Source of the DNA: Moniliella sp. 'wahieum'
Lineage: Eukaryota
DNA length: 64,000 nt
Assembly (NCBI GenBank): GCA_003971905.1
Contig: RSEE01000049.1
Location: 1-64,000 of the forward strand
Direction: 5' to 3'
The notes under the pieces are model-generated. The model saw only the letters and a program-made list of their open reading frames with translations. It ran no database searches and was not told the DNA's origin. The translations under genes and the position numbers were made by a program. Shown in pieces: positions 1-58,230 of the stretch. The first letter of the stretch is position 1, and the number at the start of each line of letters is the position of its first letter.

Positions 1-2574
1 AGAGTATGCCGAGGCGATAGCGACTACCCGAAGGAGGAGAGTTATGCCGAGGCGATAGCGAGTACCGAAGGGGAGAGAGTTATGCCGAGGCGATAGCGAG
101 CTACCCGAAGGGGAGAGAGAGTTATGCCGAGGCGATAGCGAGCTACCCGAAGGGGAGAGGAGTTATGCCGAGGCGATAGCGAGCTACCCGAAGGGGAGAG
201 AGTTATGCCGAGGCGGATAGCGAGCTACCCGAAGGGGAGAGAGTTATGCCGAGGCGATAGCGAGCTACCCGAAGGGGAGAGAGTTATGCCGAGGCGATAG
301 CGAGCTACCCGAAGGGGAGAGAGTTATGCCGAGGCGCGATAGCGAGCTACCCGAAGGGGAGAGAGTTATGCCGAGGCGATAGCGACCCGAAGGGGAGAGA
401 GTTATGCCGAGGCGATAGCGAGCTACCCGAAGGGGAGAGAGTTATGCCGAGGCGATAGCGAGCTACCCGAAGGGGAGAGAGTTATGCCGAGGGCGATAGC
501 GAGCTACCCGAAGGGGAGAGAGTTATGCCGAGGCGATAGCGAGCTACCCGAAGGGGAGAGAGTTATGCCGAGGCGATAGCGAGCTACCCGAAGGGGAGAG
601 AGTTATGCCGAGGCGATAGCGAGACCCGAAGGGGAGAGAGTTATGCGAGGCGATAGCGAGCTACCCGAAGGGGAGAGAGTTATGCCGAGGCGATAGCGAG
701 CTACCCGAAGGGGAGAGAGTTATGCCGAGGCGATAGCGAGCTACCCGAAGGGGAGAGAGTTATGCCGAGGCGATAGCGAGCTACCCGAAGGGGAGAGAGT
801 TATGCCGAGGCGATAGCGAGCTACCCGAAGGGGAGAGAGTTATGCCGAGGCGATAGCGAGCTACCCGAAGAAGGGGAGAGAGTTATGCCGAGGCGATAGC
901 GAGCTACCCGAAGGGGAGAGAGTTATGCCGAGGCGATAGCGAGCTACCCGAAGGGGAGAGAGAGTTATGCCGAGGCGATAGCGAGCTACCCGAAGGGGAG
1001 AGAGTTATGCCGAGGCGATAGCGAGCTACCCGAAGGGGAGAGAGTTATGCGAGGCGATAGCGAGCTACCCGAAGGGGAGAGAGTTATGCCGAGGCGATAG
1101 CGAGCTACCCGAAGGGGAGAGAGTTATGCCGAGGCGATAGCGAGCTACCCGAAGGGGAGAGAGTTATGCCGAGGCGATAGCGAGCTACCCGAAGGGGAGA
1201 GAGTTATGCCGAGGCGATAGCGATACCCGAAGGGGAGAGGGGAGAGAGTTATGCCGAGGCGATAGCGAGCTACCCGAAGGGGAGAGAGTTATGCCGAGGC
1301 GATAGCGAGCTACCCGAAGGGGAGAGAGTTATGCCGAGGCGATAGCGAGCTACCCGAAGGGGAGAGAGTTATGCCGAGGCGATAGCGAGCTACCCGAAGG
1401 GGAGAGAGAGAGAGTTATGCCGAGGCGATAGCGAGCTACCCGAAGGGGAGAGAGTTATGCCGAGGCGATAGCGAGCTACCCGAAGGGGAGAGAGTTATGC
1501 CGAGGGCGATAGCGAGCTACCGAAGGGGAGAGAGTTATGCCGAGGCGATAGCGAGCTACCCGAAGGGGAGAGAGTTATGCCGAGGCGATAGCGAGCTACC
1601 GAAGGGGAGAGAGTTATGCCGAGGCGATAGCGAGCTACCCGAAGGGGAGAGAGTTATGCCGAGGCGATAGCGAGCTACCGAAGGGAGAGAGTTATGCCGA
1701 GGCGATAGCGAGCTACCCGAAGGGGAGAGAGTTATGCCGAGGCGATAGCGAGCTACCGAAGGGGAGAGAGTTATGCCGAGGCGATAGCGAGCTACCCGAA
1801 GGGGAGAGAGTTATGCCGAGGCGATAGCGAGCTACCCGAAGGGGGAGAGTTATGCCGAGGCGATAGCGAGCTACCCGAAGGGGAGAGAGTTATGCCGAGG
1901 CGATAGCGAGCTACCCGAAGGGGAGAGAGTTATGCCGAGGCGATAGCGAGCTACCCGAAGGGGAGAGAGTTATGCCGAGGCGATAGCGAGCTACCGAAGG
2001 GGAGAGAGTTATGCCGAGGCGATAGCGAGCTACCCGAAGGGGAGAGAGTTATGCCGAGGCGATAGCGAGCTACCCGAAGGGGAGAGAGTTATGCCGAGGC
2101 GATAGCGAGCTACCCGAAGGGGAGAGAGTTATGCCGAGGCGATAGCGAGCTACCCGAAGGGGAGAGAGTTATGCCGAGGCGATAGCGAGCTACCCGAAGG
2201 GAGAGAGTTATGCCGAGGCGATAGCGAGCTACCCGAAGGGGAGAGAGTTATGCCGAGGCGATAGCGAGCTACCCGAAGGGGAGAGAGTTATGCCGAGGCG
2301 ATAGCGAGCTACCCGAAGGGGAGAGAGTTATGCCGAGGCGATAGCGAGCTACCCGAAGGGGAGAGAGTTATGCCGAGGCGATAGCGAGCTACCCGAAGGG
2401 GAGAGAGTTATGCCGAGGCGATAGCGAGCTACCCGAAGGGGAGAGAGTTATGCCGAGGCGATAGCGAGCTACCCGAAGGGGAGAGAGTTATGCCGAGGCG
2501 ATAGCGAGCTACCCGAAGGGGAGGAGAGTTATGCCGAGGCGATAGCGAGCTACCCGAAGGGGAGAGAGTTATGC
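1..2574. repeat. Tandem array of a 40-bp unit GAGTTATGCCGAGGCGATAGCGAGCTACCCGAAGGGGAGA (~64 copies), running off the window start; candidate telomeric/terminal satellite
   Basis: The 40-bp periodicity is directly visible. Variants are almost only 1-4 bp indels in homopolymer and GA runs. The array ends at ...GAGTTATGC (2574). Confidence 0.97.
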
Positions 2575-2650
2575 TAGCTCGCTACGAAATCGTCCGCTCT
2601 ATGCAGCATATGGCCTCAGATTTCCAATCCGACGCACCGTTCAAAAGTTA

Positions 2651-2700
2651 CACCCACCCATCCCTAACCCTACCCACCCCGACCCAACCCACCCCACCTC
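2651..2700 (+). repeat. Degenerate C-rich tract containing CCCTAACCCTA (telomere-like relic)
   Basis: CACCCACCCATCCCTAACCCTACCCACCCCGACCCAACCCACCCCACC; CCCTAACCCTA lies at 2662-2672 in left-telomere orientation. Confidence 0.45.
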
Positions 2701-3075
2701 CGATGGCCTCTGGACCTTAGTACAACATCATGTCGAGCTATGCCCCAAAGGACACCGAATATGGTGTCTGCCATGTAGATCAGGAGGCGTGCTGAAAAAA
2801 ATATTTTTGCGTTGGGTTGGGTGGGGGTAGGTGGTGGGGACGGCCTTCCGGGTGGTGGTGGCGCGGTGGTGGTGGCGGCCGGCGGCGTTGCTATTTAATT
2901 AATGCCTGTCACCGTTGGGCGGTCACTGGTCAGGCCGGCGGGACGGAGCGTCGTCACGTCAGGCCTGTCACCGGTCGGGAGTCAGCGGTTAGAGCCGCCA
3001 TCGTACCAGGTGCAGGCTGAAAAGAGCCTCAAATCGACACTAGTGCAGTTTGAAGGCTCCGGTGATCGTTTCATC

Positions 3076-3222
3076 GGTCACTCATACCAGATGTATCAAT
3101 GAACATATGTCTAGGTCACTCATACCAGATGTATCAATGAACATATGTCTAGTGTCAAATTGCATTTGTGGCCGTCAAATAATCGATCAGCCATACCAAC
3201 TGTATCACTGAACATACGTCTA
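3076..3222. repeat. 38-bp direct duplication plus a third diverged copy abutting the 28S fragment
   Basis: GGTCACTCATACCAGATGTATCAATGAACATATGTCTA at 3076-3113 and 3114-3151; CATACCAACTGTATCACTGAACATACGTCTA at 3192-3222. Confidence 0.9.
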
Positions 3223-4064
3223 GGCGCTGAAGCGTGTCTCCCATACCACACCTTTCGTGCCAGAGTTGTGCGAAAGAGTAGGCAGGCGCGGGGGTTTGTG
3301 CCGAAGCGTTGGGCGTGAGCCTGCGTGGAACGGCCCTGGTGCAGATCTTGGTGGCAGTAGCAAATATTCAAGCGAGTAACCTTGAAGACTGAAGTGGAGA
3401 AAGGTTCCATGGTAACAGCAGTTGGACATGGGTGAGCCGATCCTAACCGATAGGCTGATGCTGATCCATAGCACCCTTTTGGGGGGTGTGGTTCGGGAAA
3501 GGGAAGACGGTTAAGATTCCGTCGCCGGGATGAGGATGTATGGAGCGCGGTAACGCAAGCAAGCCAGGAGACGCTGGCGAGTACCCCAGGAAGAGTTTTC
3601 TTTTCTGCTTAACCATGCTGAGAATGCGCCGTGGAATCGGGTTATCCGGAGAGACGGTGCAGGGCGTGGGAAGAGTGCTGGCGCTACGCTGGCATCTGGT
3701 GTGTGTGCTCGACGGCCCGTGAAAATCCTGGTGCGTGTCTAGTCTCTCGCCCGGTCGTACTGATCACCGCAGCAGGTCTCCAAGGTGAAGAGCCTCTAGT
3801 TGAAACGAGAACGTAGGTAAGGGAAGTCGGCAAATTTGATCCGTAACTTTGGGAGAAGGATTGGCTCCAAGGCTTGGGTGCTGGCCGGGGCGTGCGGGTG
3901 GGCGGCCTGGGCTGCCGGGGGCGCAAGCTCCTAGCGGCTGGGCGGCGCGCTGCGGCGCGGTCCGAAAGGTGCGCTGAACAAGCGACTTGGAACTGGTACG
4001 GACGCGGGGAATCTGACTGTCTAATTAAAACATAGCATTGCGATGGCCATAACGTGGTGTGACG

Positions 4065-4098
<34 letters not shown>

Positions 4099-4114
4099 AG
4101 TGAAGAGATTCAAC

Positions 4115-4176
<62 letters not shown>

Positions 4177-4228
4177 TTAATTCGTGACGCGCATGAGTGG
4201 ATTAACGAGACTCCCAGTGTCCCTATCT
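3223..4228 (+). rRNA. 28S: Internal fragment of nuclear LSU (25S/28S) rRNA, truncated at both ends (rDNA relic)
   Basis: Conserved LSU blocks GGTGCAGATCTTGGTGG, GTGGAGAAAGGTTCC, CCGCAGCAGGTCTCCAAGGTGAA, GTAAGGGAAGTCGGCAA and GTAAACGGCGGGAGTAACTATGACTCTCTTAAGGTAGCCAAATGCCTCGTC. Starts mid-gene at GGCGCTGAAGCG and stops at TGTCCCTATCT. Confidence 0.95.
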
Positions 4229-4281
4229 GGTGGAGTTCCATCGCGGTTCTGAATCAAGTAGCATAATCGGCACTTCTGCCT

Positions 4282-4313
4282 CCTCCCTCTCTCTTCGGAG
4301 AGAGGGGGGTTTT
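4282..4313 (+). other. 12-bp stem with cUUCGg tetraloop followed by TTTT (3'-ETS-like or terminator-like hairpin)
   Basis: CCTCCCTCTCTC-TTCG-GAGAGAGGGGGG then TTTT, 54 bp downstream of the 28S breakpoint. The function is inferred. Confidence 0.5.
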
Positions 4314-4667
4314 GCGTCCCTGAAAGCCAACCCTACCGAACCATTCGACCAATTGACAATGAAAAAGGAGTGGAAAAGGAAGCGAATTTGTGTGTGGTCC
4401 CCTCCCCCTTTCCCTGTTGTGTCTTTTTGTTACCGATCCCCCTGTAAGGTTCTGACTTGTGGATATACTGACCCTCTTCCGACTGATGCATATACTGACC
4501 CCTCAGATGCTGCCTTCTGAATATATTGTCAAGGAAAACCACCCGGACGCAGTGTCTTCCGGCCATGCCCCGGGGAGTAGTGTTCGATTAGCCTTCACGG
4601 GACTGCTCTCCACACCCCCTACAGACTAATGCATGCCCCCATATCCCCTTACTCTACTACTACCACC

Positions 4668-4796
4668 ATCCGCCACCATAAACTTTCAACGCACCGCATC
4701 CCGTCCGATCTGCGAAGGTCACCACACAGCATCACCCAGTCAGTATATACCGCGATGGAAGATGAGGCCCACGTGGGAATCCTCAACACCGCCATT
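4668..4796 (+). pseudogene. 5S: Degenerate 5S rRNA copy
   Basis: ATCCGC..CCATA, GCACCGCATCCCGTCCGATCTGCGAAG, CCCAGTCAGTA, CCACGTGGGAATCCT, followed by CTTTT. Matches basidiomycete 5S but has insertions and a broken terminal helix. Confidence 0.8.
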
Positions 4797-7700
4797 CTTT
4801 CTGCACCCTCCTCCTCTTCATATTAGCCCACGCGCCTCTCGTTATACCAACACGTAGTCCCCTTCCAGAGCTCCGATGCGTACTAAGCGACGCCAGCCCC
4901 AACGCCCACCATTGAGCCGCTGTACACCCAACATATAGTAGTACCTCCCATGCCCCCTCGCCCCTGCCCAACGACCGACCCTCCAACTCCGCCCTCAATC
5001 TCAGTACCCCCTATTCACTCTCTTCTCTTCATACTAACACTTGGATGCAGCACCAGCCATTGGAGCTATGCCGTTCTTTCTTTAGACGTTAATAGTTTGG
5101 CTGTCGATTCATTCCCAACCCTATAGCACCGTATCAGCCCGTGCACGTGCACCGGTAGGGGGGGCATCACTATCGGTTTGGCCTGCAGCCGCCTGCTCTC
5201 TTTGCCCTCCACCGCTACCGCCACGTATGCCAAGGCATTGTTCCGGCCAGCACTTTCAGCATGTCTGTTGGCGCCATGCCTGCTAACGTTGGCAATGTGA
5301 TCAATGTGGGGTCTTTCGAGGAATTGTGGGTGCAACGCTCGGGGTAGATTCGCCGAAGCCGGTACTCGATCCCCTGTCTCTCGAAACAAGCGGGGCAGAC
5401 GGGTGCCCACGAAGATGTTCATTTGCAGATCCATCCTCCTCGCTACTTCGTGCAAAGTGGGATCATTCTTTGTCTCAACCCGGCGCGAAGTATCGAGACC
5501 AGTCTGTGTCACGGGCCAAGGCGGGATGGCAAGCCCAGCGGCACCTATGTGCGCCCTTCGCCATCCTAACCCCGTCCCAGTGCCCGTCTGCTCTATCTGA
5601 TCAAGGAGCTCGCTCCCAAGTCTTTTTCCAAGTCCCCATGTGGCTGGCGCGAATGCTAGCCGACGTCCAAGTCTACGTACTCAGCGACAATAGTCGCCTT
5701 CCGCCTCAATTGATTGAGGACCCCAGTTTCGTCGCTCCCAGCTTTCCGTTGCTCCCGTTTTCCCTTGCGATCTTGCGACGCTAGTCGCCCCATGCCTGTT
5801 TCTCTTACCTTTCTAGGCTGTCCGTGCGGCAGCCGTCTCCCTTGTTCTCCTCTGTTCCCCGTTCTCCCTCTGTTGCCTTGTTTCCCTTTTAGTCCCCCTG
5901 CCTGTTAGCAATGGCTCGTGGCTTTCCCCCACGGTCCATCTTGTCCCTTCGTCACCCCCCATCTTCGTCCTTCCCCCGCCTGTTGATTCTCTTCGCCTCC
6001 TGCCCACTTCTCGCCAATCGATTCAGTACAGGCAACTCTCCCGCTCTTAGTCGCCTTTCTACTCCCGGCTTAGATCGCCAGCCTTCGTCCTCAGCCTCAG
6101 TACTCCTAGTTCCCCCAGCCCGCGTGAGCCTCCTCGTGCCACGCCTCGGTCCAGCCCAGTTAAGCCGCGTGTGATCTGGTTCTTCGCCACGCCGCTCCCC
6201 GTCTCAGCCCAGTCTCAGTCCAGCAGCATCGGTCCTCTGCTGCCTTCCCCTTCCCTGAGCCCAAAGGCTTCAGACACGCTACTGCCGCCCAAGCCGGTGC
6301 TACGCAGCCTTGCCACACTTGCAGCCGCCTCTGCTATACGCCGAGAGGCCTCTCCTTGTCCCTAGCTCCGCAGCGGGCACACCAATCAGCTCAAGCGCGT
6401 CGTAACTACCGTGAGTCGTCCTTAGGACCTCCAAGGGATTGTACCCCTTAAACCCTCCGGGGTGGGCCCCCTGGCGGCGCCCGCCCGTGACAGTCTGTAT
6501 TCCGTTCCCCCCCCCCCCCCCCCCCCTCGCCGCCGCACACGTCCAAAAGGCATGCTGAACGCCAGCTTACACGTAGGTTGCATGTATGCAGTGCTTGCAG
6601 TATGTCCCTACCTTGCTTTTTTACCCATCATTGACCTTCACAGGTTACAATGTGCACCCCACCAACTGGACCCACTAGACTCCACCCTGGTGGGGGGGGG
6701 GGAGACAAGGGACCGCGCTGCAACTTGCGTTTACTTCGAAACTTGTGGGAAAAGGAACGTGGCATGGTCATTCGGCAACATCATCACACTTGACCATGTC
6801 GGTTATCCGCTCTACTGTTTTTTCCCCAGTCGACTGATAGAGAAACGGTTGGGCAATGTGTGCCTCTGCGCCTTGCTAGCACAGCACCTGGTCTTTGTTT
6901 TGTCACCTCCGAAGGCACCTCGTTCTCCGTACATGTTTTTCTACGTGGCCAGGGGACACGTGCTAGTCTGGGTGCTCTTCAGGGGCATGCACATGTTGGC
7001 TCCTATCGTCAAACCCCGGCAAACGGAATATTCGATGTTCGTTGCTTCATCATTGCTGCCTTCTCGCCCTTCGCCTACTTTCACCCCAACTCCTCAAAGA
7101 AGCCGCGCCCCTAGAAAGTGGATTGACTGTATTTCACTGGAACAGCGCGGCACAATGTTCGAGCACAACGTTCGACGCGCCTCTCAGTGCTTCATCCCCT
7201 GCCGCCCCAGGCGATCGTCTCTAACAGCATACCCAGCAAGGCACGCACTTCTTTCACCCGTCCACCTCATGTCACCGTCACGGCAAACCTCTGACACGTG
7301 TACAAGCGTAAATGGTGCCTTTCCCAGCTCGACCGCTTCAGTTGAAAGCGAGATATGCGAGGCGGAATGCAAAGACGTCAACGCCGCCCACACCTGGGGT
7401 GCCGGCAACTGGGTTATGCGTGTGGGGTCGGTGGGGGCGGCACTAGGAATTACCCACTCCCCTTCGATGGTCGGCAGGACGTGTAATTCATGCCTCTTAA
7501 AGCCAGCAGCGCCCAACCAAAAGCAGCATAGCCTGTGGGAGTTGCTAAGCCCTTTGGCCAAGGATGACGCGCCCCAACCTGACCTCACTCCCTGTCGGTG
7601 CGCTCGACAGCCCACCGCATTAGACTTCAGTTGTCTCGCCAAGACTGGTAGTACTTACCCCCACCCCACCCCCAAGGATTACCATTTGCCACAAACCGGG

Positions 7701-9195
7701 TGGGTGGTAACTTTTGTGCCCGACACGAGTGGTCCAATTTCATCTCAACTGCGCTTGGCCGAACCCCGTGAGCTTGTCGTGCCAGCATTCCTGTACGCTC
7801 GGAGCGAAGTCCTGTCACATGTCCGACGGACTGAGGAGCATTCATGGGATGGACATGATCTTTGCCTTGCCTAGCAACGCGGGTGCCAACAATGACGCCA
7901 TCCCGGTTGCGTCTGTCTGCATGGTAAGGCGGGGTTGGACGGTAGCCGGCCAGGATGGCGAGCTGAGCCGAATGCTCGCCAAGACGTGGGCTGGATGGGG
8001 TGCAGCGTCTGCTCGTTGTCTGTGACCTCTGATGACCTTGTGTGTAGGGCGTGTCCACTTGGTGCTTGAGTCTGGCTTGCGCCTCGAGTGATGGCACTAA
8101 AAGATAGCCGGCATGCTTCTTCGTACGTCCATCCTCCCAAGCACCCGTCGGCCGGGGCGTAATGCATGAGAACCACACGCTACAAGGTTCCTTCTCGTCT
8201 GACCCACGCCAAGGGCCCGAGGGGCGAGTTGACGGTGTGTAGTCGGATGTCCATCGAGTGTCTACCGAGGCGGGATGGGGGACACCGGGCGAGAAGAGGA
8301 GCTGCTGGCGGTGGCAGAGATGGGCTGCGAGGCTGAGTGTTGCGTCCGTCAGTCTTAGCCGCGCGGCGCAGGCGATCATCGATCAGGCGATCATGTCGAT
8401 CATCGATTATGGTAAGCACTGCAATATTGAAACGAGGCTGCGGGTGGGCGCTGGCTGCCGATGAGCGCTAATAAGCGTTCCCACTCATCGTGCTCATCCC
8501 CGCTCAGCCCCCGCACTCCTTGGCCCCTCGCCACCTCCTCCCGCCCTGTCGCCTCTGACTGTCGTGCGCGGTGCATGGGGCTTGGGGTGCAGCTGCATCT
8601 ACTCGACCCGCCATGATACGCAGGCACACGACGGGTGGGAGCGCGCGTCGCAGGGAAACCGCACCCACGCTACGCCAGACCCAGACCGCCGCAAGGCTGC
8701 AACCGGGCCGTCGAAGCGGCTAAGCTGCAGTCTGACCCCAACTCAATTCGAAGCCCAAGCCCGCCATTCCCAAAGCGGCTGTCGTGCACCAATGCTCAAT
8801 TCGAAGCCACGCTGGATCGCCACTGCGACGTGGCTTCGACGGGGACGTACTGAAGGGGATGCGTGTCTCCACATTGAAGAGAAGTGTTGGCTAACTCGCC
8901 GTGCCCCGCGCCGCCTATCTTCCAACTCGAGCCAAAAGGAAACCTCGCGTGCACTCTCGTTTCCTTCATCTCCTCTCTTGGACCCTCCATTACTCACGTT
9001 TTCTAAAATCAGGTTGAGTCGGTCGACGGCCGCCGCCACGTGCGGTACACCTGGGAGTCGGGGCCCATCCCATCCGTAATACGTCCCGCCCCTCACCCAT
9101 CCTGCGCCCCGTTTGCCTTCAGGACATTTTCTTCTACTAACCTTGCTTCATCCCTATCTATTGCTGCTATTGCTATGCACCGTATGCATACAGGT

Positions 9196-11194
9196 TTAGT
9201 ACAGATCAACTGGGACCAATGGGCCACACACATGGCATGGCATGGCACGGCGCGGCACCCAGCTGGGATGAAGCTTGCAGCCTCGGGGGGCTCCCCGTTT
9301 TACGAAATCCGACTCTATCATCGACCCCAGGACCCCTCCGAGGATGAACTTGGAGACAGATATGGAGTGAACGAATCGTCTCACTGTTGCCGCTCCCTTG
9401 TGCGTCTGAGTGTGACCCGTTCGTCTCTGGGGGATGAGGGCCTTGGACGTTTGCGCCGCCTCGGCTGCTCGGTGGAGGTGGGCGGATCAAGGCGAGGGCA
9501 GGTGGGGAAGGCGTCGCATCTACCTGGGCGGCAGCTGCGTTAGCCTCGGGATTGCGTTGGGGCTGCGGAAGCGTAGGCTGTGGAGGGGGCGAAGAGCTGA
9601 CAAGCGTCGCTGGTGGGGGGTAGGTAGAGGGCAACACGGGCCTTGGAGCTGGCACGCAGTACATGGTTGGGCGCCATCCACGTTTTCACACCGCATGGGA
9701 CGCGCATAGAGGCAGGTGGTCACTGCCTCCATGAGGCAATGGGAGGTGTGCAGTCAATGCGCTACCTTGCCCACATAGATCCGACTCTCATTCGTACTTG
9801 GGTGCGGTAGCTCGTGGCGCACCTGGTCTTGAGAGGAGAGAATGATCAGTTGGCCTCGTTCGCCTGCGCCTCTGGCTACCAGGGCGGCCGCCTGGATCAA
9901 GTCGAGACCAGTAAATGGGACACCCACCCAAATGACCTTGTCGCAGTCGGGCACGTCCACACATACGGAAAGCTCGTTGGTTCCCACAAGCACCACTTCG
10001 TCACCGTGCACAAATTTTACCAGGTCCTCCGCCCTTCTTCCAGGGCAGCATGGGTGTCGCCTACCCGGGACGATAACCCTACCTGATGGGCAACGTCGGT
10101 GGCTCTCCTCAAAGGCCATCGTTGATTCGGCCGCACGGCGTGGGTCGGGACCTGGCGCAACGTTCTGAAATCCGGCTCAGGGTTGGTGGACGGTTCATTC
10201 CGGAAGGGGCTAGAAGAGCGATCCGCACGGCCCCTACGGACCTCTTCGTGTATGGCAGTTTCCTGGCCAGCCGAACCAGTGTGCCCTGCATCCTCGCCCG
10301 CCTGCACGCGGCTTCTGCTTCCAGCTTGCACATTCTGGACGGAGTCTGAGGGCCAATCAAGAGCATTCTGGCCTTGCTGGACAGCAGCGGGGAGGCGAGG
10401 CAAGTGACGCAGGGCTCCGGAGATTCTGTCAGATGGAACAATCGCACGCGTGATCTGGAAAGCCAAGCGCAAACCGGCAGGAGGACCATCCTGTACTTGT
10501 GACCTGTTTTTGGGCATGTGAAGCCGGCGAATCCTTCCTCATCACGTGCATACACTCGGCGCGCACCGCCTCGGGAATTCCAATGGGAACCAGATCGAGA
10601 GGATGGATAAGAGAAGGGGGAAAGATCTCTTCAGTCGGCTCGAGCGGTTCGTGCGAGGGAGGCAAAGTACGCAGAGCACGTTTAGCGGCGCCAGTACCCT
10701 GAGTAACAAGGGCGACGTGAGTGCCAGTTTCTTTGAAGGAAAAAACGTTGCAAGTGGGATTTGGGGACAAAATACTGGCAAACGCGACAGAAGAGCAAGC
10801 GAAGACGAGGACAATACTCCAGGTCGATCTTGTCGAGGGCAGTGCGGACGATAATGAATGGGTCACGATAATGCGAGGCGGCAGCCTGGCCCTTGAGAAG
10901 GCTGCAGCGGCGAGCGTGTCGCCTGGCGCCAGCGGAGGTCGGGTCAGATGTCGAGCAGGCCGAGCAGGGTGTAGCAGCCTGAGCAAGGCAGGCACGGGGT
11001 CAGAGCTGGTGTAGGGCCGTCAGGCGGGATTGGAAGGGCACGTACCAGATTCTGACGACTGAATGGTGACACGGAGGGGGCAAGTCGGGACTCAGGACGA
11101 TCTTGGTGGAAATGATGGGCAGACGGACGAGCGTGGTAACCGGGGGCGTCGCTGGCGAGCCAGGCGAGGCTGAGTCGGGAGGCGGCGAGGACAA
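9196..11194 (-). pseudogene. Decayed RecQ-like helicase of the telomere-linked helicase (TLH) type
   Basis: Ordered, eroded SF2/RecQ motifs across frames: LVRLPIISTKIVL (motif I-like), IWYVPFQSRL (Ia), RTLPPSHE (III, TATLPP), VLVGTNELSVCVDVPDCDKVIWVGVP (V), LDLIQAAALVARG (VI), then CLMEAVTTCLY..C..PCTAC (RecQ Zn-binding) and a further CHVCG motif. Catalytic residues are lost. Confidence 0.7.
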
Positions 11195-12159
11195 GGGCGG
11201 AGGCCGGGGGAAGACATGGGGCCAGCTGCACGCCTGGAGCCCAAGGCGAGGCGGGCGGCGCGAGGAGGAGGCCCGGGGCGGCAGCGAGGCAGCAGAGGCA
11301 GGGCTTGCCCTTGTCCAAATTCACCAGTGCTGCCACGACGGCCGAAAGCGCGGGCCACGAGCGATTAGGTGGAGGAGGCCTACGCGGCCGTAGGATGGCG
11401 GTGGGGGGGGGGCATGTTGGCAGCGCACGGTGCGCCAACAATGTTGTGTGACATGTGACGCGCAGATTCGACGCCGTGATGCATGATGGCCATGCAGGAC
11501 ATGTGACGGCAATTTCCCTAGACCGACGCTGCGGGCATTAGGGTTACTACTTGTTCTCCTGGCCTGGGACTATGATCCTGGACAATTGCAGCTGGATCGG
11601 TGGAGATGGAGGGCGCATCCATCCTGGGCACGCTCGGTACGGGGGAGACCGTCACCTCCAGTAGGCGAAATCTCACCTATAGTCTCGACCCTGGTCTGTC
11701 TCGCTTAGCCCTGACTGTGCCAGGTGGCGTTTGCGCCACAAGATGATTTGTTGTGTGCATCAGCCTAGCTTTCGTGTTTCCTTTGATCAATCTATAGCCT
11801 AGAGAGTGCATTATGCTACCGGTGTTTACACAGTTGGTTCTTCAGTTGTAAGCGGGCTCCGTACCAGTGCTTCTTCAAATGTCGAAACAGATCATAATGA
11901 AGATTCATACATGACCCTCTCTTTCACCGTGTGCGGCACCCAGATGCTCGCTTGACATGGTAAAATGGAGAAACCCGCGGATACCACATTGCCGGCATCC
12001 CACATTGTTTCGGATACTTCAGGAACGCAGGAGCAGGAGGAGAGAAGTAGACACCCAAAAGAGGGACTCTGGACGAACAGAGGCGCCAGAGAATCAACAT
12101 GGGACTGCTTGATAGTTCAATGATTGTTCAATGATTCTCATTTGCTTTCCTCTTGTGCT

Positions 12160-13814
12160 TTAGAAGGGGTTGGGCGCATCAATGTTGATCGACACGCCTT
12201 AACCTGAACATAATTTTCCAGACCGTATGCCGAGCCTTCACGGCCAATACCTGATGCCTTGTACCCACCAGTCGGCACTTGGGCCGACAAGGCGAGAGGT
12301 ACGTGTTGATCCACACCGAGCCCGCCTCGAGGGAGTGGGCCGTCTTGAGCGCCTTGGAGATGTCGCGGGAAAATATGCCCGCGGCCAAGCCATACATGGA
12401 ATCGTTGGCCTTGTGCAGCAGCTCGTCGTGATCCTTGAATTTGTGCACAACCACCACTGGACCAAATATTTCCTCGCGATTGATCACCGAGTCCTCGGGG
12501 GTATCGACAAAGATAGTAGGCTCAATGAACCACCCATTCAGCTTGCCCTTTCCAACGTACCGCTCTTCCGGCAAAGGATTGCCACCCGTCACCAGGCGCG
12601 CTTCGGCCTTGCCAATCTGAATGTACTTCATGACGCGGTCATATTGCACCTCGCTGATCTGCGGGCCGAGAAAGGTAGACGGGTCAAAGGGGTCACCCAC
12701 CTTGATGGCCTCAAACCTCGCCTTGGACGGCGAGGAAAGGCTCATAAGTTTCTCGGCCACATAGATCCGCGATCCGGCACAGCAGGCCTGGCCGTGTTGA
12801 AGGTAGCGCCCAATGTGCACCATGAAAGCGCCTGTTCCAAATCGGCATCGTCCAGCACTACCACGGGGATTGCCACCCAGCTCCAGGGTTACCTTTTTGA
12901 GGTTGGTACTGGCGCCGCTTGCATCACCATGCGTCCGACACGTGTGGAACCGGTAAAGGACACCTTGTCAATATCCATGTGCTCGGCAATCGCGCTACCC
13001 GCGCCTGGTCCGAGACCCGTGACAAGGTTGACCACGCCAGGGGGAACCCGGCTTGGTGAATCAGTTCAAACAACCTGAGTGCCGACAAGGGCGTATTCTC
13101 CGCCGACTTGATCACCACCGTGTTGCCTGTCGCTAGGGCGGGGGCCAGCTTCCATGCTGTGAGCGTCAATGGGAAATTCCACGGTACGATGGCACCGCAT
13201 ACACCGACTGGTTCCAAACGGGCATACTGGAACAAGTGTGGGTTCTCCCCAGATAAGACTTGGCCCGTGTGCTTGTCGGCCCAACCGGCAAAGTAGCGGA
13301 ACGCCTCGACGACTTGGGGGATATCAATTGCCTTGGCCAATGACACTGGCTTACCGCCGTCGATCGCCCGATCGCAGCCAACTCGTCCAAGTTCTCTTCG
13401 ACCAGACGGACGAGTTTGGTGAGCATCGCAGCGCGTTGGGGACCGGTTGTCTGCAAGCCCCAAGTCGTCTTGAATGCGCGACGGGCCGCCTTGACAGCCA
13501 CATCAACGTCATCTTTATCGCCTTGGGCAACATCAGCAAGTAACACCTTGGTGGCTGGGTTGTACACCTTGAGCTGCTCCCCCGTCTTGGCAGAGACCCA
13601 TTTCCACTGGAGAGAGCGAGGGGTGTGGTTAGAAGAGATGATTTCCAAGAATGGTCCAGGGAAGCGGCAGCACTCATGAGAAGGTAGGGAGCAGAGTGGT
13701 ACGTACTCAATGTACAGGCCGCCGCAGAAGCTGGACTTGGAGCCGTCGGGGAACGTGAGGTTAACAGTCGGCACAGGTGATGAGCCGTGAGGAAGAGTTC
13801 GCCGTAGAAGCCAT
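12160..13814 (-). CDS. NAD(P)-dependent aldehyde dehydrogenase (ALDH1/2-like)
   Basis: [45 protein letters not shown] (catalytic Cys) and EEIFGPV. One intron at ~13609-13707; indels are probably sequencing errors; stop TAA at 12160-12162. Confidence 0.93.
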
Positions 13815-15761
13815 ATTGGAGAAGGAGGAGGTGGAAGAGGAAGAGGACCAGGGAGAGGAAGAGCGATGGTAAAAGATGTTGAAAACGGAGGAGGGGAGAA
13901 GGAAAGAGACGGGGTTATATATACGAGGCGCGCACACCCACTGCAAGATAATGGATTGGTTAATGGCCGAAGCCCATCCGCCGCACGGCAACAGTACAGA
14001 GGAGACGAACGTGATGTTGACGGCGGGGAGGGGGTGCAGAGCACCATTGCCTACTGCACCGCGAGCGAGATTCGGAGTATCAGCCACTTGTCCCTTAGGG
14101 CGTGTGCGCAGAGACGGACAACAAAGGAGTGGGATGGCGGAGTTGGTTGGGGTTGTCGCCGGGGGCCGCTGTGTGCGAGACAGCTGCGGCGGCGGCAAAG
14201 CAAGGTCGCAAGTTGTTTTGCCGCCAAAAACGATGTGGAGGAATATTCAACTATGCTACGGAGGATATGGATTGCAACCGACACCAGACTGCTGTGTGCG
14301 TCTCGACGCCGAGCGCGAAGCGGCAAAATCATCGATGGATTACAAGAAGCACACGTGCTCACCTACAAAAACTTGGAGAGCATCGATGATGAAAACTCTG
14401 TGGCAATGGCTGTCTTTGGGAGAATGGCAGGACGACTCGCAAGAGCGGGACAAGAAAGATAAACAGTGACTATGACTAGTGACTAGGGACTATAGTGACG
14501 CGCCCAGTGACGTGTGACGAAGAGCAACTCCATCACACTTGCTCCTCCGGCCTCTGCAGCACAGGAAGGGTGGGTCGAATATGTCTGCCCGGAAAAAGGT
14601 AGTTAAGTACGTTAAACGATAAACGTTAACTGCGCTATGTATCTTCGTGCTGCCACACCGAAGGGCATCTGGTGGGGGCTAGGTCATCGACATCGATCAT
14701 CTGTGGCTATACTGAGTACACTGAGTACTCACTTGTCGCGGTCTCACGCGTCACGCGTCACGCCATAACGTCCTACGTCCCTCGCAACGCGCAAATGCTA
14801 ATCCTATAGCGGGTCAGAGAGCCTCACCGAAGTCACTCCGCAGCATAGTCACTAGCTTCACTACAGAGACGCTCCTCAGGCTCAGCGATGAGGCTCATCC
14901 CTCATCGGCCTCATCCTTTGTCGAAAGAAGCACAAGGATCAACAGCAAGTGAAGTCTGTAGCGCTGTCGACGCGTCGAAGCGCGAACCGCAGTCAAATTA
15001 GGCAAGGTGGAGGTCCGAAGGACACTCGGAGGTACACCTGAGCCACAGTATGTCCGCCATCACATGCACACAATACGTACCATACACAGGAGATCTCCGA
15101 TGTTCAAGAAGACCACAGTTGGGAAAAGGGAGAGTCTACGGAGCTTCCGGGAGTAACAACGTTTTGCCCCCGTTGCCGGAACTGCGTTGATGGCTTGCCT
15201 CGATTACCATGAAAGCACTGGTAGGCAGACTGCAGAACAGTCTTGGGTGAGCTAGAGAACGGCAAAAGTGTGCTACCCAACATAGGTGCCTGCGGTTTGC
15301 GGCGTGACGCGCGACATATATGGAACACAACCACAGTCAGTCCAGGCCTGCTCAGGCGCTCGGGCCTTGAGGCAGCCCAACAAGTGCTAACCGCGCCGCG
15401 TTACGCAGCACTGCTCAGATCTGCCTCAGAACGGCCTGGTAGGCCTGGTGGCTCGTGCGCGTGAAGCGTGACATGGGGCTTGTGTGACCACGTGACCATT
15501 TGCCACCACGACTGGGGAAGAGACTGGGAACACCAGCACTGGCCGCGGCCCTTGCCTGCAGCCACCGATTGCAGCCACCATCGGACAGCCCGGCAGTGCC
15601 GGCGTTCCGGGTAGCCCCGTTCCGCCGCTGTTGCGCCCCCAGGCTGCCTTGGCCTGCGTGCATCCCCTCCCCCCACTGATAGGCATGCCGTCCAAATCGC
15701 GCAAAGCCAAGCACGCCAACCGCGCCGGCCACACACCGCCCAGAGCCACGGCGTGCCCACC

Positions 15762-17234: not shown

Positions 17235-17455
17235 TTCTACCATTGACGTTGGCTTTCCGCCGAGCTCGCTTCTGATGTGCAGGCCGTGGCAGCACAGGTG
17301 CCAACGCGGGCAGTACTCCTGTAGCAAGTGTTCCCCCGTCACGATACTAGTAGGCACAGTGCTTAATTCCCCCCACTACAATCCCGCAACGGGCTGCCCT
17401 CTCCCGACTAGCAGCAATGCATTAACCCATATGTCCCCACTGTAACCGCACAACG

Positions 17456-17575
17456 ATCCGCTCCATAGAACTGTGAAAGCACCGCGTCCCGTGCGATCTG
17501 CAAAGGTCCCCACAGTGTCGCCCAGTCAGTAGGACGACGGTGGGGGACCACGTGGGAATCCTAGATGCCGTGGTT
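17456..17575 (+). rRNA. 5S: 5S rRNA-like copy (probably a pseudogene; 5' helix disrupted) with T-run terminator
   Basis: ATCCGCTCCATAGAACTGTGAAAGCACCGCGTCCCGTGCGATCTGCAAAG...CACAGT..CCCAGTCAGTA..GGTGGGGGACCACGTGGGAATCCTAGATGCCGTGGTT then CTTTTT. The ACTGTG/CACAGT helix is intact. Confidence 0.88.
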
Positions 17576-17966
17576 CTTTTTGTCCCTTTCTCCATATCTC
17601 CGTTTGCACGCACCCAGCCCCTGCCCATCACTCCCTTGAGTCCCCCGTTTCCACCACCCAGTAGTAAGCAGCTGCACCCCATCGTACCTCCTGCCTTCGT
17701 GTCATCGTCTCTCCCCACCGCCTTTCTTTGTCCCAGATCCCTATCTACCCTTCCTACTAATCGCCTCACGTATCCCTCCCGACGGCGCACCAACCGGAGT
17801 ATACTGTGGAGCTACGTTCTTCTCTCGGCAACTGCTCACTCTTAGTAGAATGTGAATACATAGCATGGTTACTCCCACCTAAGTGGTTGCTCTCCTCGGG
17901 TAGGGGTAGACTCCGCAAGCGGAGGAGCTACCCATTCTTCCTTGCCTTTTAGCACAGTCCATCAAC

Positions 17967-39811: not shown

Positions 39812-39911
39812 TCGCCACCTTAGCCACCGTTCCTCCTTCGCCACCTTAGCCACCGTTCCTCCTTCGCCACCTTAGCCACCGTTCCTCCTTCGCCACCTTA
39901 GCCACCGTTCC
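39812..39911. repeat. 26-bp tandem repeat TCGCCACCTTAGCCACCGTTCCTCCT (~3.8 copies) at the 5' side of the CRE element
   Basis: Directly visible; followed by a 19-bp-period duplication GGAACGTGGCACCGGTC at 39957-39992. Confidence 0.9.
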
Positions 39912-42614
39912 ACGCTGGAGAGGGAACGTAATATCACCGATGCTTGCGGGCGGGCTGGAACGTGGCACCGGTCAGGGAACGTGGCACCGGTCGCTGATGT
40001 AAAAGTGTGCAGATCGGGGGTCGTGCAATATTGCCTAAGTACTCCGCCACCACAACAAGGACAACGACCTCATGGGACGTATCCCAACCACGCCTGGCAA
40101 CTCCCTCCGGCCCCCGACTCCTCAACGCGCGAAGCTCCCGACCCAGTCACCAAAGCCAATCGCCTCATTGGGAGGGCTGCCTCAGCCGCGCAGCAAGTAC
40201 CCTCGTCGGCCAATCCACCATTGCCCCCCACCCCCGAGACCCAGGCAAGCCTGGAAAAGCTCCACCCGTTGGAGAGGCGAACCCCTTCAACCTCGGTCCG
40301 GGCACAGCGTTCGGCAACGCCTCCAGCCGCACTCGTCCTACCCACACAGGCCGCGAGGTACCGCCGGGCACCCCCTCACGACACGACGGACAGTAACCGC
40401 ATCGTGGGGACCTGGACGAAATCGACCTTGTTGCTTTGATTGCCACGTTCAGAATCGACGTTGGGGCAGGTCTATCCGGGTGGACCCAGCCCCTCCTGAA
40501 AACGGCCCTTCAAATGCGATCGCTCGTCACCTTTCTCACCGCCCTCAAGTTATTTACCACGGCACTGCCCCTGGACGCGAGCTCTTGGCCTCCCGCCTTA
40601 CCCCCTGGAGAAGGCATCGGGAGGTATCCGCCCCATCGCCTGTGGGGAGCTGATCTACCGTCTGTGCGCCAAGGCCATTACTCGAGCGATCGCTAACCCA
40701 ACAGCTGGCTTCTCCCCACCCAGCTGGGAGTAGCATCGCAAAACTGGGTGGAGCCTATCGTACGGATGGTCGAGCGCATGACAGCGCCAGGCGGGGAGAA
40801 CGATGCGGAAATGGGCGACTTCAGCCACGTCGCCATGCTCGACTTTACCAACGCGTTCAACACCGTGCGCCGTCGCACATTCGCCAACGCGCTCCATGTC
40901 TACGCCCCCCATCTCCTCACCTTGGGCCGATGGATCTATGGTTCCCCCACCCAGCTTTGGGTTGCGTCGGGCGGAAATGAGACCAGCATCCTGTCGGCAG
41001 AGGGCGTACGGCAGGGCGACCCCCTCGCCCCCTTTTTCTTCTCCATCGCAGTGCGGCCCACCTAGAGAAGTTAAGAGATGCTCTGCCGCCGGGGCACCTG
41101 GTGATGGCATACCTGGACGACATTACGATTTTCGGTCCAGGGCCAGGCATTACCGGCCAAGCCGCGGAGATTTTGGAAGACGACGCGTCAGGCCGCAAGC
41201 TCAACCTGCGCAAGTGTGTCGAGCGGGACCGGGACCAGATTCGGGAGGATGGTCTGCAGGTTCTGGGCACTTGTGTGGGAGGGGTAGACTGTCGTCGATC
41301 GTGGCTCCGGGCCCAACTGGCCAATCTGAGGGAGAACATGCCTAAGTTTGATGGCATCACCCGCCAGGGACGCCTCTTACTATGGCGGCTCAGCACTCAG
41401 ACCAAGCTGCGCCACCTGCTCCGCACCATGCAGATGGAAGGAGAGCTAGACGACGTGCTGGCCGAGATTGATGCCTTCATCTGTACGGAGTTCAGACGGA
41501 TCCGGGGCGACGAGGATCCCCAAGGTGCCAAGGACGACCACTTCGACATGCTCATGAGCCTGCCCCTCCGGCTGGGAGGATGTGGCAGCCCGCTTTACTC
41601 GTATATTGCGCCCCACGCCCGTGCCGCGGCCAACGAGGTCAACGACTATCTTATTACCACTTATGTTGACCCAGCGGGACCGCAAACGACTGCGGCCAAC
41701 GCATTTACGAAACAACGCCAGCGCTGCCGGGAGATGTGGGAGCAAAGTCGACAGGAGCTGCTCTAGAAGCTGGACGCTGCCGATGGTCGCCATGTGGTTG
41801 AGCACAGCAACCCGCTGAGCCACAACTGGCTCTCCGCCATTCCATCCGCCCCGTGCCTCAAGCTCTCTGACCAGCAGGTCCAGGTTGGTCTCCAGCTCCG
41901 CACGCTGTGCCGCACCACGCGCAGCATGTGCAAGTGCGGCGTCATGTCCTCGCTGGAGCACATCATGTCTTGCACCCGCACCAGGCCAAGTTTGGAGCGT
42001 TGCATGAGGCAGTGCGGGAGCCCATTCTCCAGCTCCTACGCTCCATCCCCGACACCCACGTCCGCAACGAACCTATGGTGGAGGACGAGGATGGGAGAAG
42101 ACAGAGGACGCAGCGCACCGACTACCGCGTGATGGGGCCCGGAGCACTCGGAGGATCAGGAATGGAGGTAGACCACACGCTGCGCGACACGGGATCACTG
42201 GCGGCGCAGAGCGCGTTCCGGAGGGTGGTGCATGAGAGCACCGCAACCCCCTTGGAACGCCGGGAGAAGGAGCTGCTTCGGATGCTTGAACAAGCAGAAT
42301 GCGACAAGAACGCCAAGTACCAGGGACGCACTCAAGAGCCGTTTTTCCCCCTGGTTTTGACGACGTGACTGATACTACGGCACCAAGACGGCGGGCAAGT
42401 TGTTCGCGCATTGGAAGGAGTTGGCTACTAAGTCTCAGTGGAAATGGTTCCTCGCTCGGATGTCAACCACGTTCCTCCGTGTCCACACGCGCTTCCTAGG
42501 GTACGGAACCGGATGGCGTGAGCCGGAGGGTCCTGATATCCTGGCGATCCCCCTGGTCCCTTGACCCTGGTGGCGCCCCCAAGTAACCCCCGCAAGATGA
42601 ACGGTTAGGTTTAG
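39812..42614 (+). mobile_element. CRE-clade non-LTR retrotransposon (Cnl1/MoTeR-like) with RT and restriction-like endonuclease
   Basis: GAGLSGWT, RPIACGE, QLGV, LDFTNAFNTV, GVRQGDPLAPFFFS, AYLDDI, VLGT, LPLRLGGCG, CKCG..EHIMSC zinc finger, LHEAV, RTDY..VD, DKNAKY, FFPLV. The ORF ends at 42564, with an in-frame TAG at 41764 plus indels. Confidence 0.88.
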
Positions 42615-57534: not shown

Positions 57535-58230
57535 CGGCGTGTGTTTGGAGTTGCTTGCTGGCACCAAACCCCCTTTAGGAAAACCATCTCCACGATATAT
57601 GACACCCATCAGTCAATTCATCTTTTGGTTCCAGTGTCCAACTATCTTTTGCTCGCCGTCTTGTATGGTGGCATCACAGTATCCTCGCGTTGCCATAATA
57701 CCCACTGCAGTAGGGAAAATGATTCTTGGGTACGTGTGTGGTACTTGGCGTTAATTCCTTTCGCATTTTCTGCCTGTTCCAACAGTCGAAGCCTCTCTCC
57801 TTCTCCCGGCGCGCTCCAAAGGCGTTTTGGGGTCCTCTCTCTCTCTTGCACCACCTTCCGGTACGCAGCCATCACCTTCCTTGTGCCCGAGTCCCGCAGG
57901 GCATGGTCCATCGTCATGCCTGTTGGCTCAAATGTTCCAGGTCCCATCACTCGGTATAGTCAGCAGAGACGTAGTATCTTTTCGACTAATTCCTCCCATG
58001 CCTTATTGTCTCATCCGCTTCCACCACCGGCGTAGTCGGTTTTGACGTTGTGGATGGTATCGGGCATGGAACCTCTACTATACTCCGTAACCTTCGCCCC
58101 AAAAGACATAGGAGCTTGCCTATATAGTACCCCCTGAACCTTCAGTACATTGGCCACCCAAAGCATGGCTGCTCGCTGAACACACCAAAAACGCCAGATA
58201 CCTGTCAATATGACAAGGCATTGCCCCGAC
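57535..58230 (-). mobile_element. Decayed 3' fragment of a second CRE-clade element (RLE domain)
   Basis: MGPGTFEPTGMTMDHALRDSG..RKVVQE..RLLEQAENAKGINAKYHTRTQESFSLL aligns by eye with MGPGALGGSGMEVDHTLRDTG..RRVVHE..RMLEQAECDKNAKYQGRTQEPFFPL of the 40-42 kb element; SMPDT aligns with SIPDT. Confidence 0.8.

What the first reader, a model, noticed from the sequence alone, without database searches (positions are those of the whole stretch)
1..2574. Candidate non-canonical telomere: homogeneous 40-bp repeat array in a chromosome-end context
Seen: ~64 near-identical copies of a 40-bp unit run off the window start. Inward lie CCCTAACCCTA relics (2662), rDNA debris and a TLH-type RecQ pseudogene transcribed toward the array. 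Established: RecQ-like telomere-linked helicases (Magnaporthe TLH1, S. pombe tlh1, Ustilago UTAS) mark subtelomeres, and fungal telomerase repeats are usually TTAGGG or at most a few tens of nt, G-rich toward the 3' end. Here the strand running 3' toward the end would be C/T-rich (TCTCCCCTTCGGGTAGCTCGCTATCGCCTCGGCATAACTC). Inference: this lineage may cap chromosomes with an exceptionally long telomerase repeat, or with a recombination/rolling-circle-maintained satellite that replaced TTAGGG. I cannot see whether the window starts at a contig end.
Basis: partly seen in the sequence, partly recalled or inferred. Interest (0 to 1): 0.82.

Follow-up and report, generated by a model that had tools for sequence, protein, structure and literature searches.

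The report
Homogeneous 40-bp array at chromosome end
A perfectly uniform 40-base repeat array sits at the outer edge of a decayed fungal chromosome-end region and may be a telomerase-free chromosome cap of a kind described only recently in some yeasts, but the window cannot show whether it is the true tip.

Summary
Bases 1-2574 are 64 copies of one 40-bp unit. Unit variants are indels, not substitutions, so they look like long-read consensus errors. The unit occurs nowhere else in the window.

The chromosome-end context is partly confirmed:
- A 52-nt C-rich telomere-like tract lies beside the array.
- An LSU rRNA fragment and a 5S relic follow.
- The C-terminal relic of a RecQ-like helicase points toward the array.

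A telomerase product is unlikely, because the strand running 5'->3' outward is C/T-rich.

The closest precedent is already in print: Microstromatales yeasts lack telomerase and cap chromosomes with end-specific arrays of 41-178-bp motifs (PMC13234504). This unit is not among their motifs, and its strand polarity is opposite to theirs.

My estimates:
- Recombination-maintained terminal cap: about 0.4.
- Ordinary subterminal satellite, like the helicase-associated repeats of Magnaporthe: about 0.35.
- Internal or fusion relic: about 0.1.
- Telomerase repeat: about 0.03.
- Artefact: about 0.05.

Whether base 1 is a contig end could not be determined, and no eukaryotic genome collection was available to check other ends.

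The parts
1..2574 (+). Tandem array of about 64 copies of a 40-bp unit (plus strand AGAGTTATGCCGAGGCGATAGCGAGCTACCCGAAGGGGAG). It runs off the window start. The G/A-rich strand reads inward and the C/T-rich strand reads outward.
   Evidence: 41 of 63 full units are identical and the variants are indels. There is no copy elsewhere in the window.
2575..2584 (+). Inner junction. The array stops abruptly after TTATGC and is followed at once by a 10-nt exact inverted copy of the unit core (TAGCTCGCTA against TAGCGAGCTA).
   Evidence: The inverted local score of 20 was reached by 10 of 1000 shuffles of the 80-nt flank and by 8 of 765 other 80-nt pieces of the window. A direct-orientation degenerate unit is not significant (423 of 1000).
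2644..2704 (+). C-rich telomere-like tract containing CCCTAACCCTA at 2662. Its G-rich complement reads outward, the canonical orientation for a left end. It may be a fossil of an older telomere or an interstitial telomere-like tract.
2808..2880 (+). G-rich tract that is an imperfect inverted partner of the C-rich tract. Arms 2672-2696 and 2808-2832 are 84% complementary with 111 nt between them.
3076..3222 (+). A/T-richer 38-bp repeat: two exact copies and a third at 82%.
3353..4228 (+). Truncated LSU rRNA fragment covering model positions 1456-2350 of 3401.
   Evidence: 326 and 397 bits.
4628..4814 (+). 5S rRNA-like relic, about 70% identical over 188 nt to the region of the 5S gene at 17456-17576.
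9586..10053 (-). Relic of the C-terminal (Helicase_C) part of a RecQ-like SF2 helicase, read toward the array. No DEAD-domain half was found upstream of it.
   Evidence: Helicase_C E 4.3e-4, 20.9 bits, below the 23.5 cut-off. (4 hits, best 1.6e-10). (relatives carry DEAD plus Helicase_C and match RecQ1/RecQ best). (tblastn E 2.9e-25 over 9990-9586).
12182..14050 (-). First clearly intact gene inward of the array (aldehyde dehydrogenase, in three exon-like ORFs). It marks the inner edge of the roughly 9.6-kb gene-poor zone.
   Evidence: One search found no other family at or below E 0.001 in 58 ORFs between 4.2 and 12.1 kb.

Best explanation
The 40-bp array is a young satellite kept uniform by recombination, and it is not made by telomerase. 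It forms the outermost part of a decayed subtelomere and most likely serves as the chromosome cap itself. That would make it a non-canonical, telomerase-independent telomere of the general kind described in Microstromatales yeasts.

Proposed mechanism (inferred, not shown here):
1. An older G-rich-outward telomere eroded down to the 52-nt relic at 2649-2700.
2. A new 40-bp motif was amplified on the end.
3. The motif is kept long and uniform by break-induced replication, unequal sister exchange or rolling-circle copying of extrachromosomal circles.

Shown directly: the array, its uniformity, its abrupt inner boundary, its strand composition and the subtelomere-like neighbours. Inferred: terminal position, capping function and copying mechanism.
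For: 1. The array runs off the window start and no canonical repeat array lies anywhere in the 64 kb.
2. It is uniform. 41 of 63 full units are identical and the variants are indels typical of long-read consensus errors, which implies very recent or continuing copying.
3. Just inward lie a telomere-like tract in the canonical orientation, rDNA debris and a RecQ-like helicase relic pointing outward. No intact gene was found until 12.2 kb.
4. There is a published precedent with similar numbers. Motifs are 41-178 bp and arrays 1.6-21.6 kb. Genome G+C is 60.3% (J. angkorensis) and 61.0% (P. phylloscopi). The arrays are BAL-31-sensitive, and circles and TERRA-like RNA were detected (PMC13234504). 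Here the unit is 40 bp, the array is at least 2.57 kb, and the window's 2-kb bins run from 55 to 66% G+C.
5. The genes are fungal, with Basidiomycota the commonest phylum in the nearest cluster.
6. [quoted passage not shown]
Against: 1. Polarity. In the paper all motifs are listed 5'->3' outward and called G-rich, and all TERRA-like reads lie on the G-rich strand. The rows I read in parts 3 and 4 of the supplement look G-richer than C by eye, but I counted only one by hand. Here the outward strand is C16 T11 G8 A5.
2. The unit shares no 8- to 18-mer with any motif in Table S4 of that paper (with a working positive control). This window is therefore not one of the published ends.
3. Terminal position is unseen, and the rise in errors toward base 1 is weak evidence.
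4. Order-level taxonomy was not obtained. The best protein relative found was only 77% identical and unnamed.
5. A telomere-like relic beside the array fits a lineage that still has canonical repeats equally well.
6. Tandem repeat blocks next to telomere-linked helicase genes are ordinary in telomerase-positive fungi.
Confidence: 0.4

Rival explanations
1. The array is an ordinary subterminal, telomere-associated satellite. It would be a tandem-repeat block lying between a telomere-linked helicase gene and a canonical telomere. The real telomere lies beyond base 1, either because the window or contig is cut inside the array or because the assembler could not get through it. Unequal exchange and gene conversion keep it uniform.
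For: [quoted passage not shown] That paper notes short tandem repeats dominate subtelomeres in almost all organisms (PMC1635262). Here the array lies distal to a RecQ-like helicase relic that points toward it. A telomere-like tract lies proximal to the array, as at junctions between subtelomeric blocks. The non-telomeric strand polarity needs no explanation under this reading. The assembly is visibly error-prone in the array, so truncation is credible.
Against: No substitution variants appear among 63 units, which is unusual for a passive satellite. Only 2.57 kb of array is present before the sequence stops. A long-read assembly would normally span that length if a telomere followed (inference). 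No canonical repeat array is visible. The unit contains no TTAGGG or CCCTAA hexamer, unlike some of the Magnaporthe repeats.
Confidence: 0.35
2. The array is an internal relic. It would be the former right-end array of another chromosome arm, with its G-rich strand running 5'->3' rightward. That arm fused head-to-head to an eroded left end, whose relic is the C-rich tract at 2649-2700. Alternatively the join or inversion was made by the assembler. On this reading the window starts inside the array and more chromosome lies to the left.
For: This is the only reading under which both the array (G-rich rightward) and the C-rich tract have the polarity expected of telomeric DNA. Chromosome number ranges from 3 to 20 among the published telomerase-negative yeasts, so fusions have occurred in such lineages. 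An exact 10-nt inverted repeat sits at the junction.
Against: It needs a window or contig boundary to fall inside an internal array. An old fusion relic should have accumulated substitutions, and none is seen. There is no direct evidence of sequence to the left.
Confidence: 0.1
3. The 40-bp unit is synthesised by telomerase from an unusually long RNA template.
For: Perfect unit uniformity and an abrupt inner boundary are compatible with templated addition.
Against: The strand that would be extended (5'->3' outward) is C/T-rich with G8 of 40. From recall, not from any call, the longest known telomerase repeats are a few tens of nt and G-rich on that strand. No second, template-like copy lies in the window. 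Rfam finds no telomerase RNA in 1-12000 or in the whole window at gathering thresholds.
Confidence: 0.03
4. The array is an assembly or library artefact, such as a concatemer, a vector or a collapsed or chimeric contig end.
For: Indel errors are dense in the array and worst in the first 41 nt.
Against: There is no match in 72,556 plasmid records, in prokaryotic genomes or in the paper library. The array joins unique sequence cleanly and error density falls toward the junction, as expected for a real array anchored by reads.
Confidence: 0.05

Closest known systems
Non-canonical, chromosome-end-specific telomeric repeat arrays of Microstromatales yeasts: Jaminaea angkorensis, J. pallidilutea, Parajaminaea phylloscopi, Sympodiomycopsis kandeliae (Brejova et al., Nucleic Acids Res 2026, PMC13234504; preprint 10.1101/2025.09.07.674783). 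I read sections 13, 18, 19, 21 and 22 and supplement parts 2-4.
   Same: Both are long complex motifs in kilobase-scale tandem arrays at the outer edge of the chromosome. The published motifs are 41-178 bp and the arrays 1.6-21.6 kb. No TTAGGG array is present. Genome G+C is about 60% in two of the four species. A recombination or circle-based (ALT-like) maintenance is proposed. The paper's idea that proximal repeats are remnants of former telomeres capped by a new motif fits the relic tract at 2649-2700.
   Different: The unit here is 40 bp, one below the published range. It shares no 8- to 18-mer with any listed motif. The outward strand is C-rich here and G-rich there. Terminal position, loss of TERT/Tpp1, circles and TERRA could not be tested. 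Membership of the order was not established.
Helicase-associated repeats (HARs) of the TLH subtelomere in Magnaporthe oryzae (Rehmeyer et al., Nucleic Acids Res 2006, PMC1635262). I read passages only.
   Same: Blocks of tandem repeats are specific to chromosome ends and lie next to a telomere-linked RecQ-type helicase gene. Helicase copies are often truncated or mutated. rDNA is associated with a chromosome end.
   Different: HARs lie inside a canonical TTAGGG telomere. That region is 66% A+T and made of several short compound blocks, some with telomere-like motifs. Here there is one uniform array of at least 2.57 kb, 60% G+C, with no telomere hexamer and no visible canonical telomere.
Composite telomeric repeats of telomerase-lacking Meloidogyne nematodes (Nat Commun 2024, PMC10844300). 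I read the abstract and passages.
   Same: Species-specific complex repeats at contig ends in genomes without the canonical repeat or telomerase, with ALT proposed.
   Different: Those are in animals. The repeats are G-rich and oriented like canonical telomeres and lie mostly at one end of each chromosome.
Telomerase-templated long repeats of budding yeasts (recalled; only the search listing of PMC7857110 was seen).
   Same: The repeat units are longer than six bases and are uniform.
   Different: From recall, units reach at most a few tens of nt and are G/T-rich on the 3' strand. Those yeasts are low-G+C ascomycetes. The polarity here is opposite.

Membership tests
Microstromatales-type non-canonical telomeric arrays | Kilobase-scale tandem array of one long complex motif (published 41-178 bp, arrays 1.6-21.6 kb) | tested here: met
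   40-bp unit, 64.2 copies, at least 2574 bp. The unit is one base below the published range.
Microstromatales-type non-canonical telomeric arrays | The array is the physical chromosome terminus (contig end, BAL-31-sensitive) | not testable with these tools
   The window gives no contig coordinates. The error rise toward base 1 is weak. No genome or read collection for eukaryotes was available.
Microstromatales-type non-canonical telomeric arrays | The G-rich strand runs 5'->3' out of the chromosome. This is a consistent property of all listed motifs and of the TERRA-like reads. | tested here: not met
   The outward strand here is C16 T11 G8 A5. For the paper's convention and data.
Microstromatales-type non-canonical telomeric arrays | The genome lacks TERT/Est2, Tpp1 and TTAGGG-like arrays | not testable with these tools
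   Only 64 kb is available. Within it there is no TTAGGG array, only 6 TTAGGG and 2 CCCTAA hexamers, all isolated apart from the CCCTAA inside CCCTAACCCTA at 2662.
Microstromatales-type non-canonical telomeric arrays | The organism belongs to the order Microstromatales | tested here: inconclusive
   The genes are fungal with Basidiomycota-leaning neighbours and G+C is about 60%. The best relative of one enzyme is 77% identical and unnamed.
Telomerase-synthesised telomere repeat | The G-rich strand is the 3'-ending strand | tested here: not met
Telomerase-synthesised telomere repeat | A telomerase RNA locus carries a template of more than one unit, and a TERT gene is present | not testable with these tools
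   No extra copy of the unit and no telomerase RNA family hit in the window. The rest of the genome is unseen.
Subtelomeric helicase-associated / telomere-associated repeats | A tandem block lies between a telomere-linked helicase gene and the chromosome end | tested here: met
   The array lies about 7 kb distal to the helicase relic at 9586-10053, which is read toward it.
Subtelomeric helicase-associated / telomere-associated repeats | A canonical telomere lies distal to the block, and the block is shared by several ends | not testable with these tools
   The sequence stops inside the array and other ends are unavailable.
Telomere-linked RecQ helicase (TLH / UTASa / Y'-help type), for the relic at 9586-10053 | RecQ-type SF2 core with a DEAD/DEAH domain plus Helicase_C | tested here: inconclusive
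   Only the Helicase_C part is detectable, and it is below Pfam's cut-off. Kinship is supported through relatives P0121-P0124. No DEAD-domain match was found upstream. A word-index search for longer relatives found nothing.
Telomere-linked RecQ helicase (TLH / UTASa / Y'-help type), for the relic at 9586-10053 | Located near a chromosome end | tested here: inconclusive
   The relic is on the minus strand, read toward the array. That the array side is a chromosome end is itself unproven.

The most novel reading that the evidence does not exclude
The array is the true chromosome terminus in a telomerase-negative fungus outside the four published species, and its pyrimidine-rich (C/T) strand runs 5'->3' to the end. 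That would be a non-canonical telomere of reversed strand polarity. It would show that end protection and ALT-like maintenance do not need a G-rich 3' strand. It might also mark a second, independent loss of telomerase in fungi.
Probability: 0.3. Interest if true: 0.8.

Novelty: new variant of a known kind. Interest (0 to 1): 0.55.

Why it matters
Natural telomerase-free telomeres are rare. The fungal case was published only in 2025-2026, for four species. A further example with a new motif would widen the system.

The reversed G/C polarity matters more. It would test whether G-strand binders (Pot1, CST), G-rich TERRA and 3' G-overhang logic are dispensable once recombination takes over.

If the array is instead just a subterminal satellite, the finding is ordinary. 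It would then be a helicase-associated repeat block at a decayed subtelomere in an error-prone long-read assembly.

Tried and rejected
Searches that found nothing:
- Exact 18-mers of the unit in 8.1 million papers and 0.36 million preprints: none.
- blastn of 400 bp of the array against plasmids: none, so a vector origin is rejected.
- A 30-mer against prokaryotic genome contigs: none.
- A taxonomy attempt with the PP4R3-like ORF: nothing at E 1e-20 or better.
- The ADH search gave only unnamed or bacterial-named relatives at 77% identity or less, which does not place the organism.
- A word-index search for longer relatives of the helicase ORF: none.
- A PDB sequence search with that ORF: nothing significant.

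Ideas tested and dropped:
- Special secondary structure of either strand of three units. The z-scores were -0.23 and +1.23, so there is none.
- An origin of the unit from other window sequence. Only 9-11-nt chance matches were found.
- A degenerate direct-orientation unit at the inner junction. It is not significant (423 of 1000 shuffles).
- A terminal error spike as proof of a contig end. The evidence is weak, because an interior bin has more edits than the first bin.
- The array as an rDNA intergenic-spacer sub-repeat. It lies upstream of a doubly truncated LSU fragment, not in spacer position.
- A coding array. The 40-nt period brings TAG/TAA into every frame on both strands, as read.

Other contig ends, TERT and raw reads therefore stayed unchecked.
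Full report
THE OBSERVATION

Bases 1-2574 are a head-to-tail array of one 40-bp unit: period 40, 64.2 copies, 96% matches, 3% indels. The sequence was read directly.

Cutting the array at the TTATGC anchor gives 63 full units plus the junction piece. Of the full units, 41 are identical. The variant units change length, or in one case carry one insertion plus one deletion. No unit shows a plain base substitution. Slips in GAGAG, CCC and GGGG runs are what uncorrected long-read consensus looks like. The underlying array is therefore probably uniform.

A 30-nt core matches 51 times, all within 84-2562, and never in 100 shuffles. A sensitive blastn of three units against the remaining 61 kb finds only 9-11-nt chance matches. 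The plus-strand unit is G16 A11 C8 T5, so the strand that runs 5'->3' toward the window start is C/T-rich.

THE SURROUNDINGS

The array stops abruptly after TTATGC at 2574. The next ten bases are an exact inverted copy of the unit's near-palindromic core. Only 10 of 1000 shuffles and 8 of 765 other 80-nt pieces of the window score as well. A degenerate direct-orientation unit is not supported.

About 75 nt further in lies a 52-nt tract of C33 A13 T5 G1 that contains CCCTAACCCTA.
- The 11-mer alone is not significant, since 11 of 100 shuffles give such a match.
- The tract is the only (C3-4 N1-2)x5-or-more run in the window.
- Its G-rich complement points outward, the canonical orientation for a left end.
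- An imperfect inverted G-rich partner follows 111 nt later.

Then come a 38-bp repeat in three copies and an LSU rRNA fragment covering model positions 1456-2350 of 3401. A 5S-like relic at 4628-4814 is about 70% identical to the 5S gene region at 17456-17576.

From 4.2 to 12.1 kb, 58 ORFs gave no family at or below E 0.001 except a sub-threshold Helicase_C match on the minus strand (E 4.3e-4, 20.9 bits against a 23.5-bit cut-off).
- A full phmmer scan of 1.84 billion representatives found 4 relatives, the best at 1.6e-10.
- Two of them carry DEAD plus Helicase_C. One of these matches RecQ1/RecQ structures best (7.6e-18) and the RecQ-family model, below its cut-off.
- tblastn places the closest relative on 9990-9586 (E 2.9e-25). 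It finds no DEAD-domain half upstream.

The 'TLH-type RecQ pseudogene' is therefore a C-terminal relic of a RecQ-like helicase, read toward the array. The first intact gene is an aldehyde dehydrogenase at 12.2-14.1 kb. Ordinary housekeeping genes follow.

THE ORGANISM

The genes are fungal. They include PX-associated/DUF3818, OPT, GDA1 and a leucyl-tRNA synthetase in several exon-like pieces. The nearest Atlas cluster is mostly Basidiomycota and the next mostly Ascomycota. The 2-kb bins run from 55 to 66% G+C. One enzyme's best relative is 77% identical and unnamed. Order-level placement was not achieved.

WHAT IS KNOWN

Brejova et al. (PMC13234504) show that four Microstromatales yeasts lack TTAGGG repeats, TERT/Est2 and Tpp1.
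- Their chromosomes end in tandem arrays of long motifs, mostly specific to one end. Motif sizes are 52-178 bp in J. angkorensis, 41-100 bp in J. pallidilutea, 101-132 bp in P. phylloscopi and 55-122 bp in S. kandeliae.
- In J. angkorensis the arrays are about 1.6-21.6 kb and BAL-31-sensitive, and circles and TERRA-like RNA were detected there.
- An ALT-like mechanism is proposed.
- Two of the genomes are 60.3% and 61.0% G+C.
- Some ends carry 'proximal' repeats, read as remnants of former telomeres capped by a new motif.

The array here fits in unit size, length and context. It differs in two respects.
- None of the unit's 8- to 18-mers occurs in their motif tables, with a working positive control.
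- Their motifs are listed 5'->3' outward and are G-rich, and TERRA is always the G-rich strand. Here the outward strand is C-rich.

The ordinary alternative is also documented. In Magnaporthe oryzae most ends have a TLH RecQ-helicase gene flanked by blocks of tandem repeats found nowhere else in the genome. These lie inside a canonical telomere, and one telomere joins the rDNA (PMC1635262). Meloidogyne composite telomeric repeats are again G-rich and oriented (PMC10844300).

WEIGHING

Telomerase synthesis is unlikely (about 0.03). The extended strand would be C/T-rich, and no template-like copy is visible. An artefact is unlikely (about 0.05): there is no vector or prokaryotic match, and errors fall toward the unique anchor.

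The real choice is between a terminal cap and a subterminal satellite.
- For the cap: the sequence begins inside the array with no canonical repeat anywhere; the array is completely uniform; its visible length lies inside the published range; and long arrays are rare in such compact genomes apart from rDNA and telomeres.
- Against the cap: the reversed polarity, the unseen terminus, and the fact that subtelomeric tandem blocks beside helicase genes are commonplace.

A third reading gives both the array and the C-rich tract telomere-like polarity. In it, the array is the former right end of another arm fused to this eroded left end, or an assembler misjoin. It requires sequence to the left of base 1.

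I put the cap at about 0.4, the subterminal satellite at about 0.35 and the fusion or internal relic at about 0.1.

MECHANISM

In every non-telomerase reading the array is made and kept uniform by homology-driven copying: break-induced replication, unequal sister exchange or rolling-circle copying of a small circle. This is inferred from uniformity and from the cited systems. Nothing in the window shows it directly. The exact 10-nt inverted repeat at the inner boundary might be a trace of the founding event, but that is speculation.

NOVELTY AND SCORE

If this array is terminal, it is a new variant: a new motif, one base shorter than any published, of opposite strand polarity, and possibly in another lineage. 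If it is subterminal, it is ordinary. Interest is 0.55.

WHAT COULD NOT BE DONE

No eukaryotic genome, contig-end or read collection was available. Other ends, TERT/Tpp1 and read termini therefore remain unchecked.

Noticed in passing
window 4628-4814 and 17416-17593: A decayed 5S rRNA-like copy lies about 400 bp downstream of the truncated LSU fragment. It is about 70% identical over 188 nt to the region of the only Rfam-detected 5S gene (17456-17576, 45.5 bits, just above the 38-bit threshold). This hints that the debris derives from an rDNA unit with a linked 5S gene.
   Followed up: partly
window 2649-2700 and 2808-2832: A C-rich telomere-like tract and a G-rich tract form an imperfect inverted repeat (84% over 25 nt) around 111 nt of unrelated sequence. 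It looks like a small fragment with outward-pointing telomere-like ends. No explanation was found.
   Followed up: partly
window 2549-2584: The array's inner boundary is an exact 10-nt inverted repeat (TAGCGAGCTA ... TAGCTCGCTA) separated by 22 nt. It may be a trace of the event that founded or attached the array.
   Followed up: partly
window 45072-46124 (minus strand): An intron-less zinc-type alcohol dehydrogenase. Its named relatives are all bacterial at about 50-54% identity (Citrobacter, Burkholderiales, Neisseria and others). Its three closest relatives (63-77%) are unnamed. It may be a horizontally acquired gene.
   Followed up: no
window 42123-42348 and 57713-57956: A roughly 240-bp dispersed inverted repeat at 68% identity, the only other repeat pair in the window's self-comparison.
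   Followed up: no
window 39812-39911: A perfect 26-bp tandem repeat, 3.8 copies at 100% match.
   Followed up: no
window 6495-6515, 6697-6710 and 62982-63017: Long homopolymer runs: about 20 C, about 11 G, and a 36-nt G-rich run. In an assembly with evident indel errors their lengths are probably unreliable.
   Followed up: no
window 6426-7871 (plus strand): A 482-codon open frame in the gene-poor zone with no Pfam match. It is probably a chance frame in G+C-rich DNA.
   Followed up: partly
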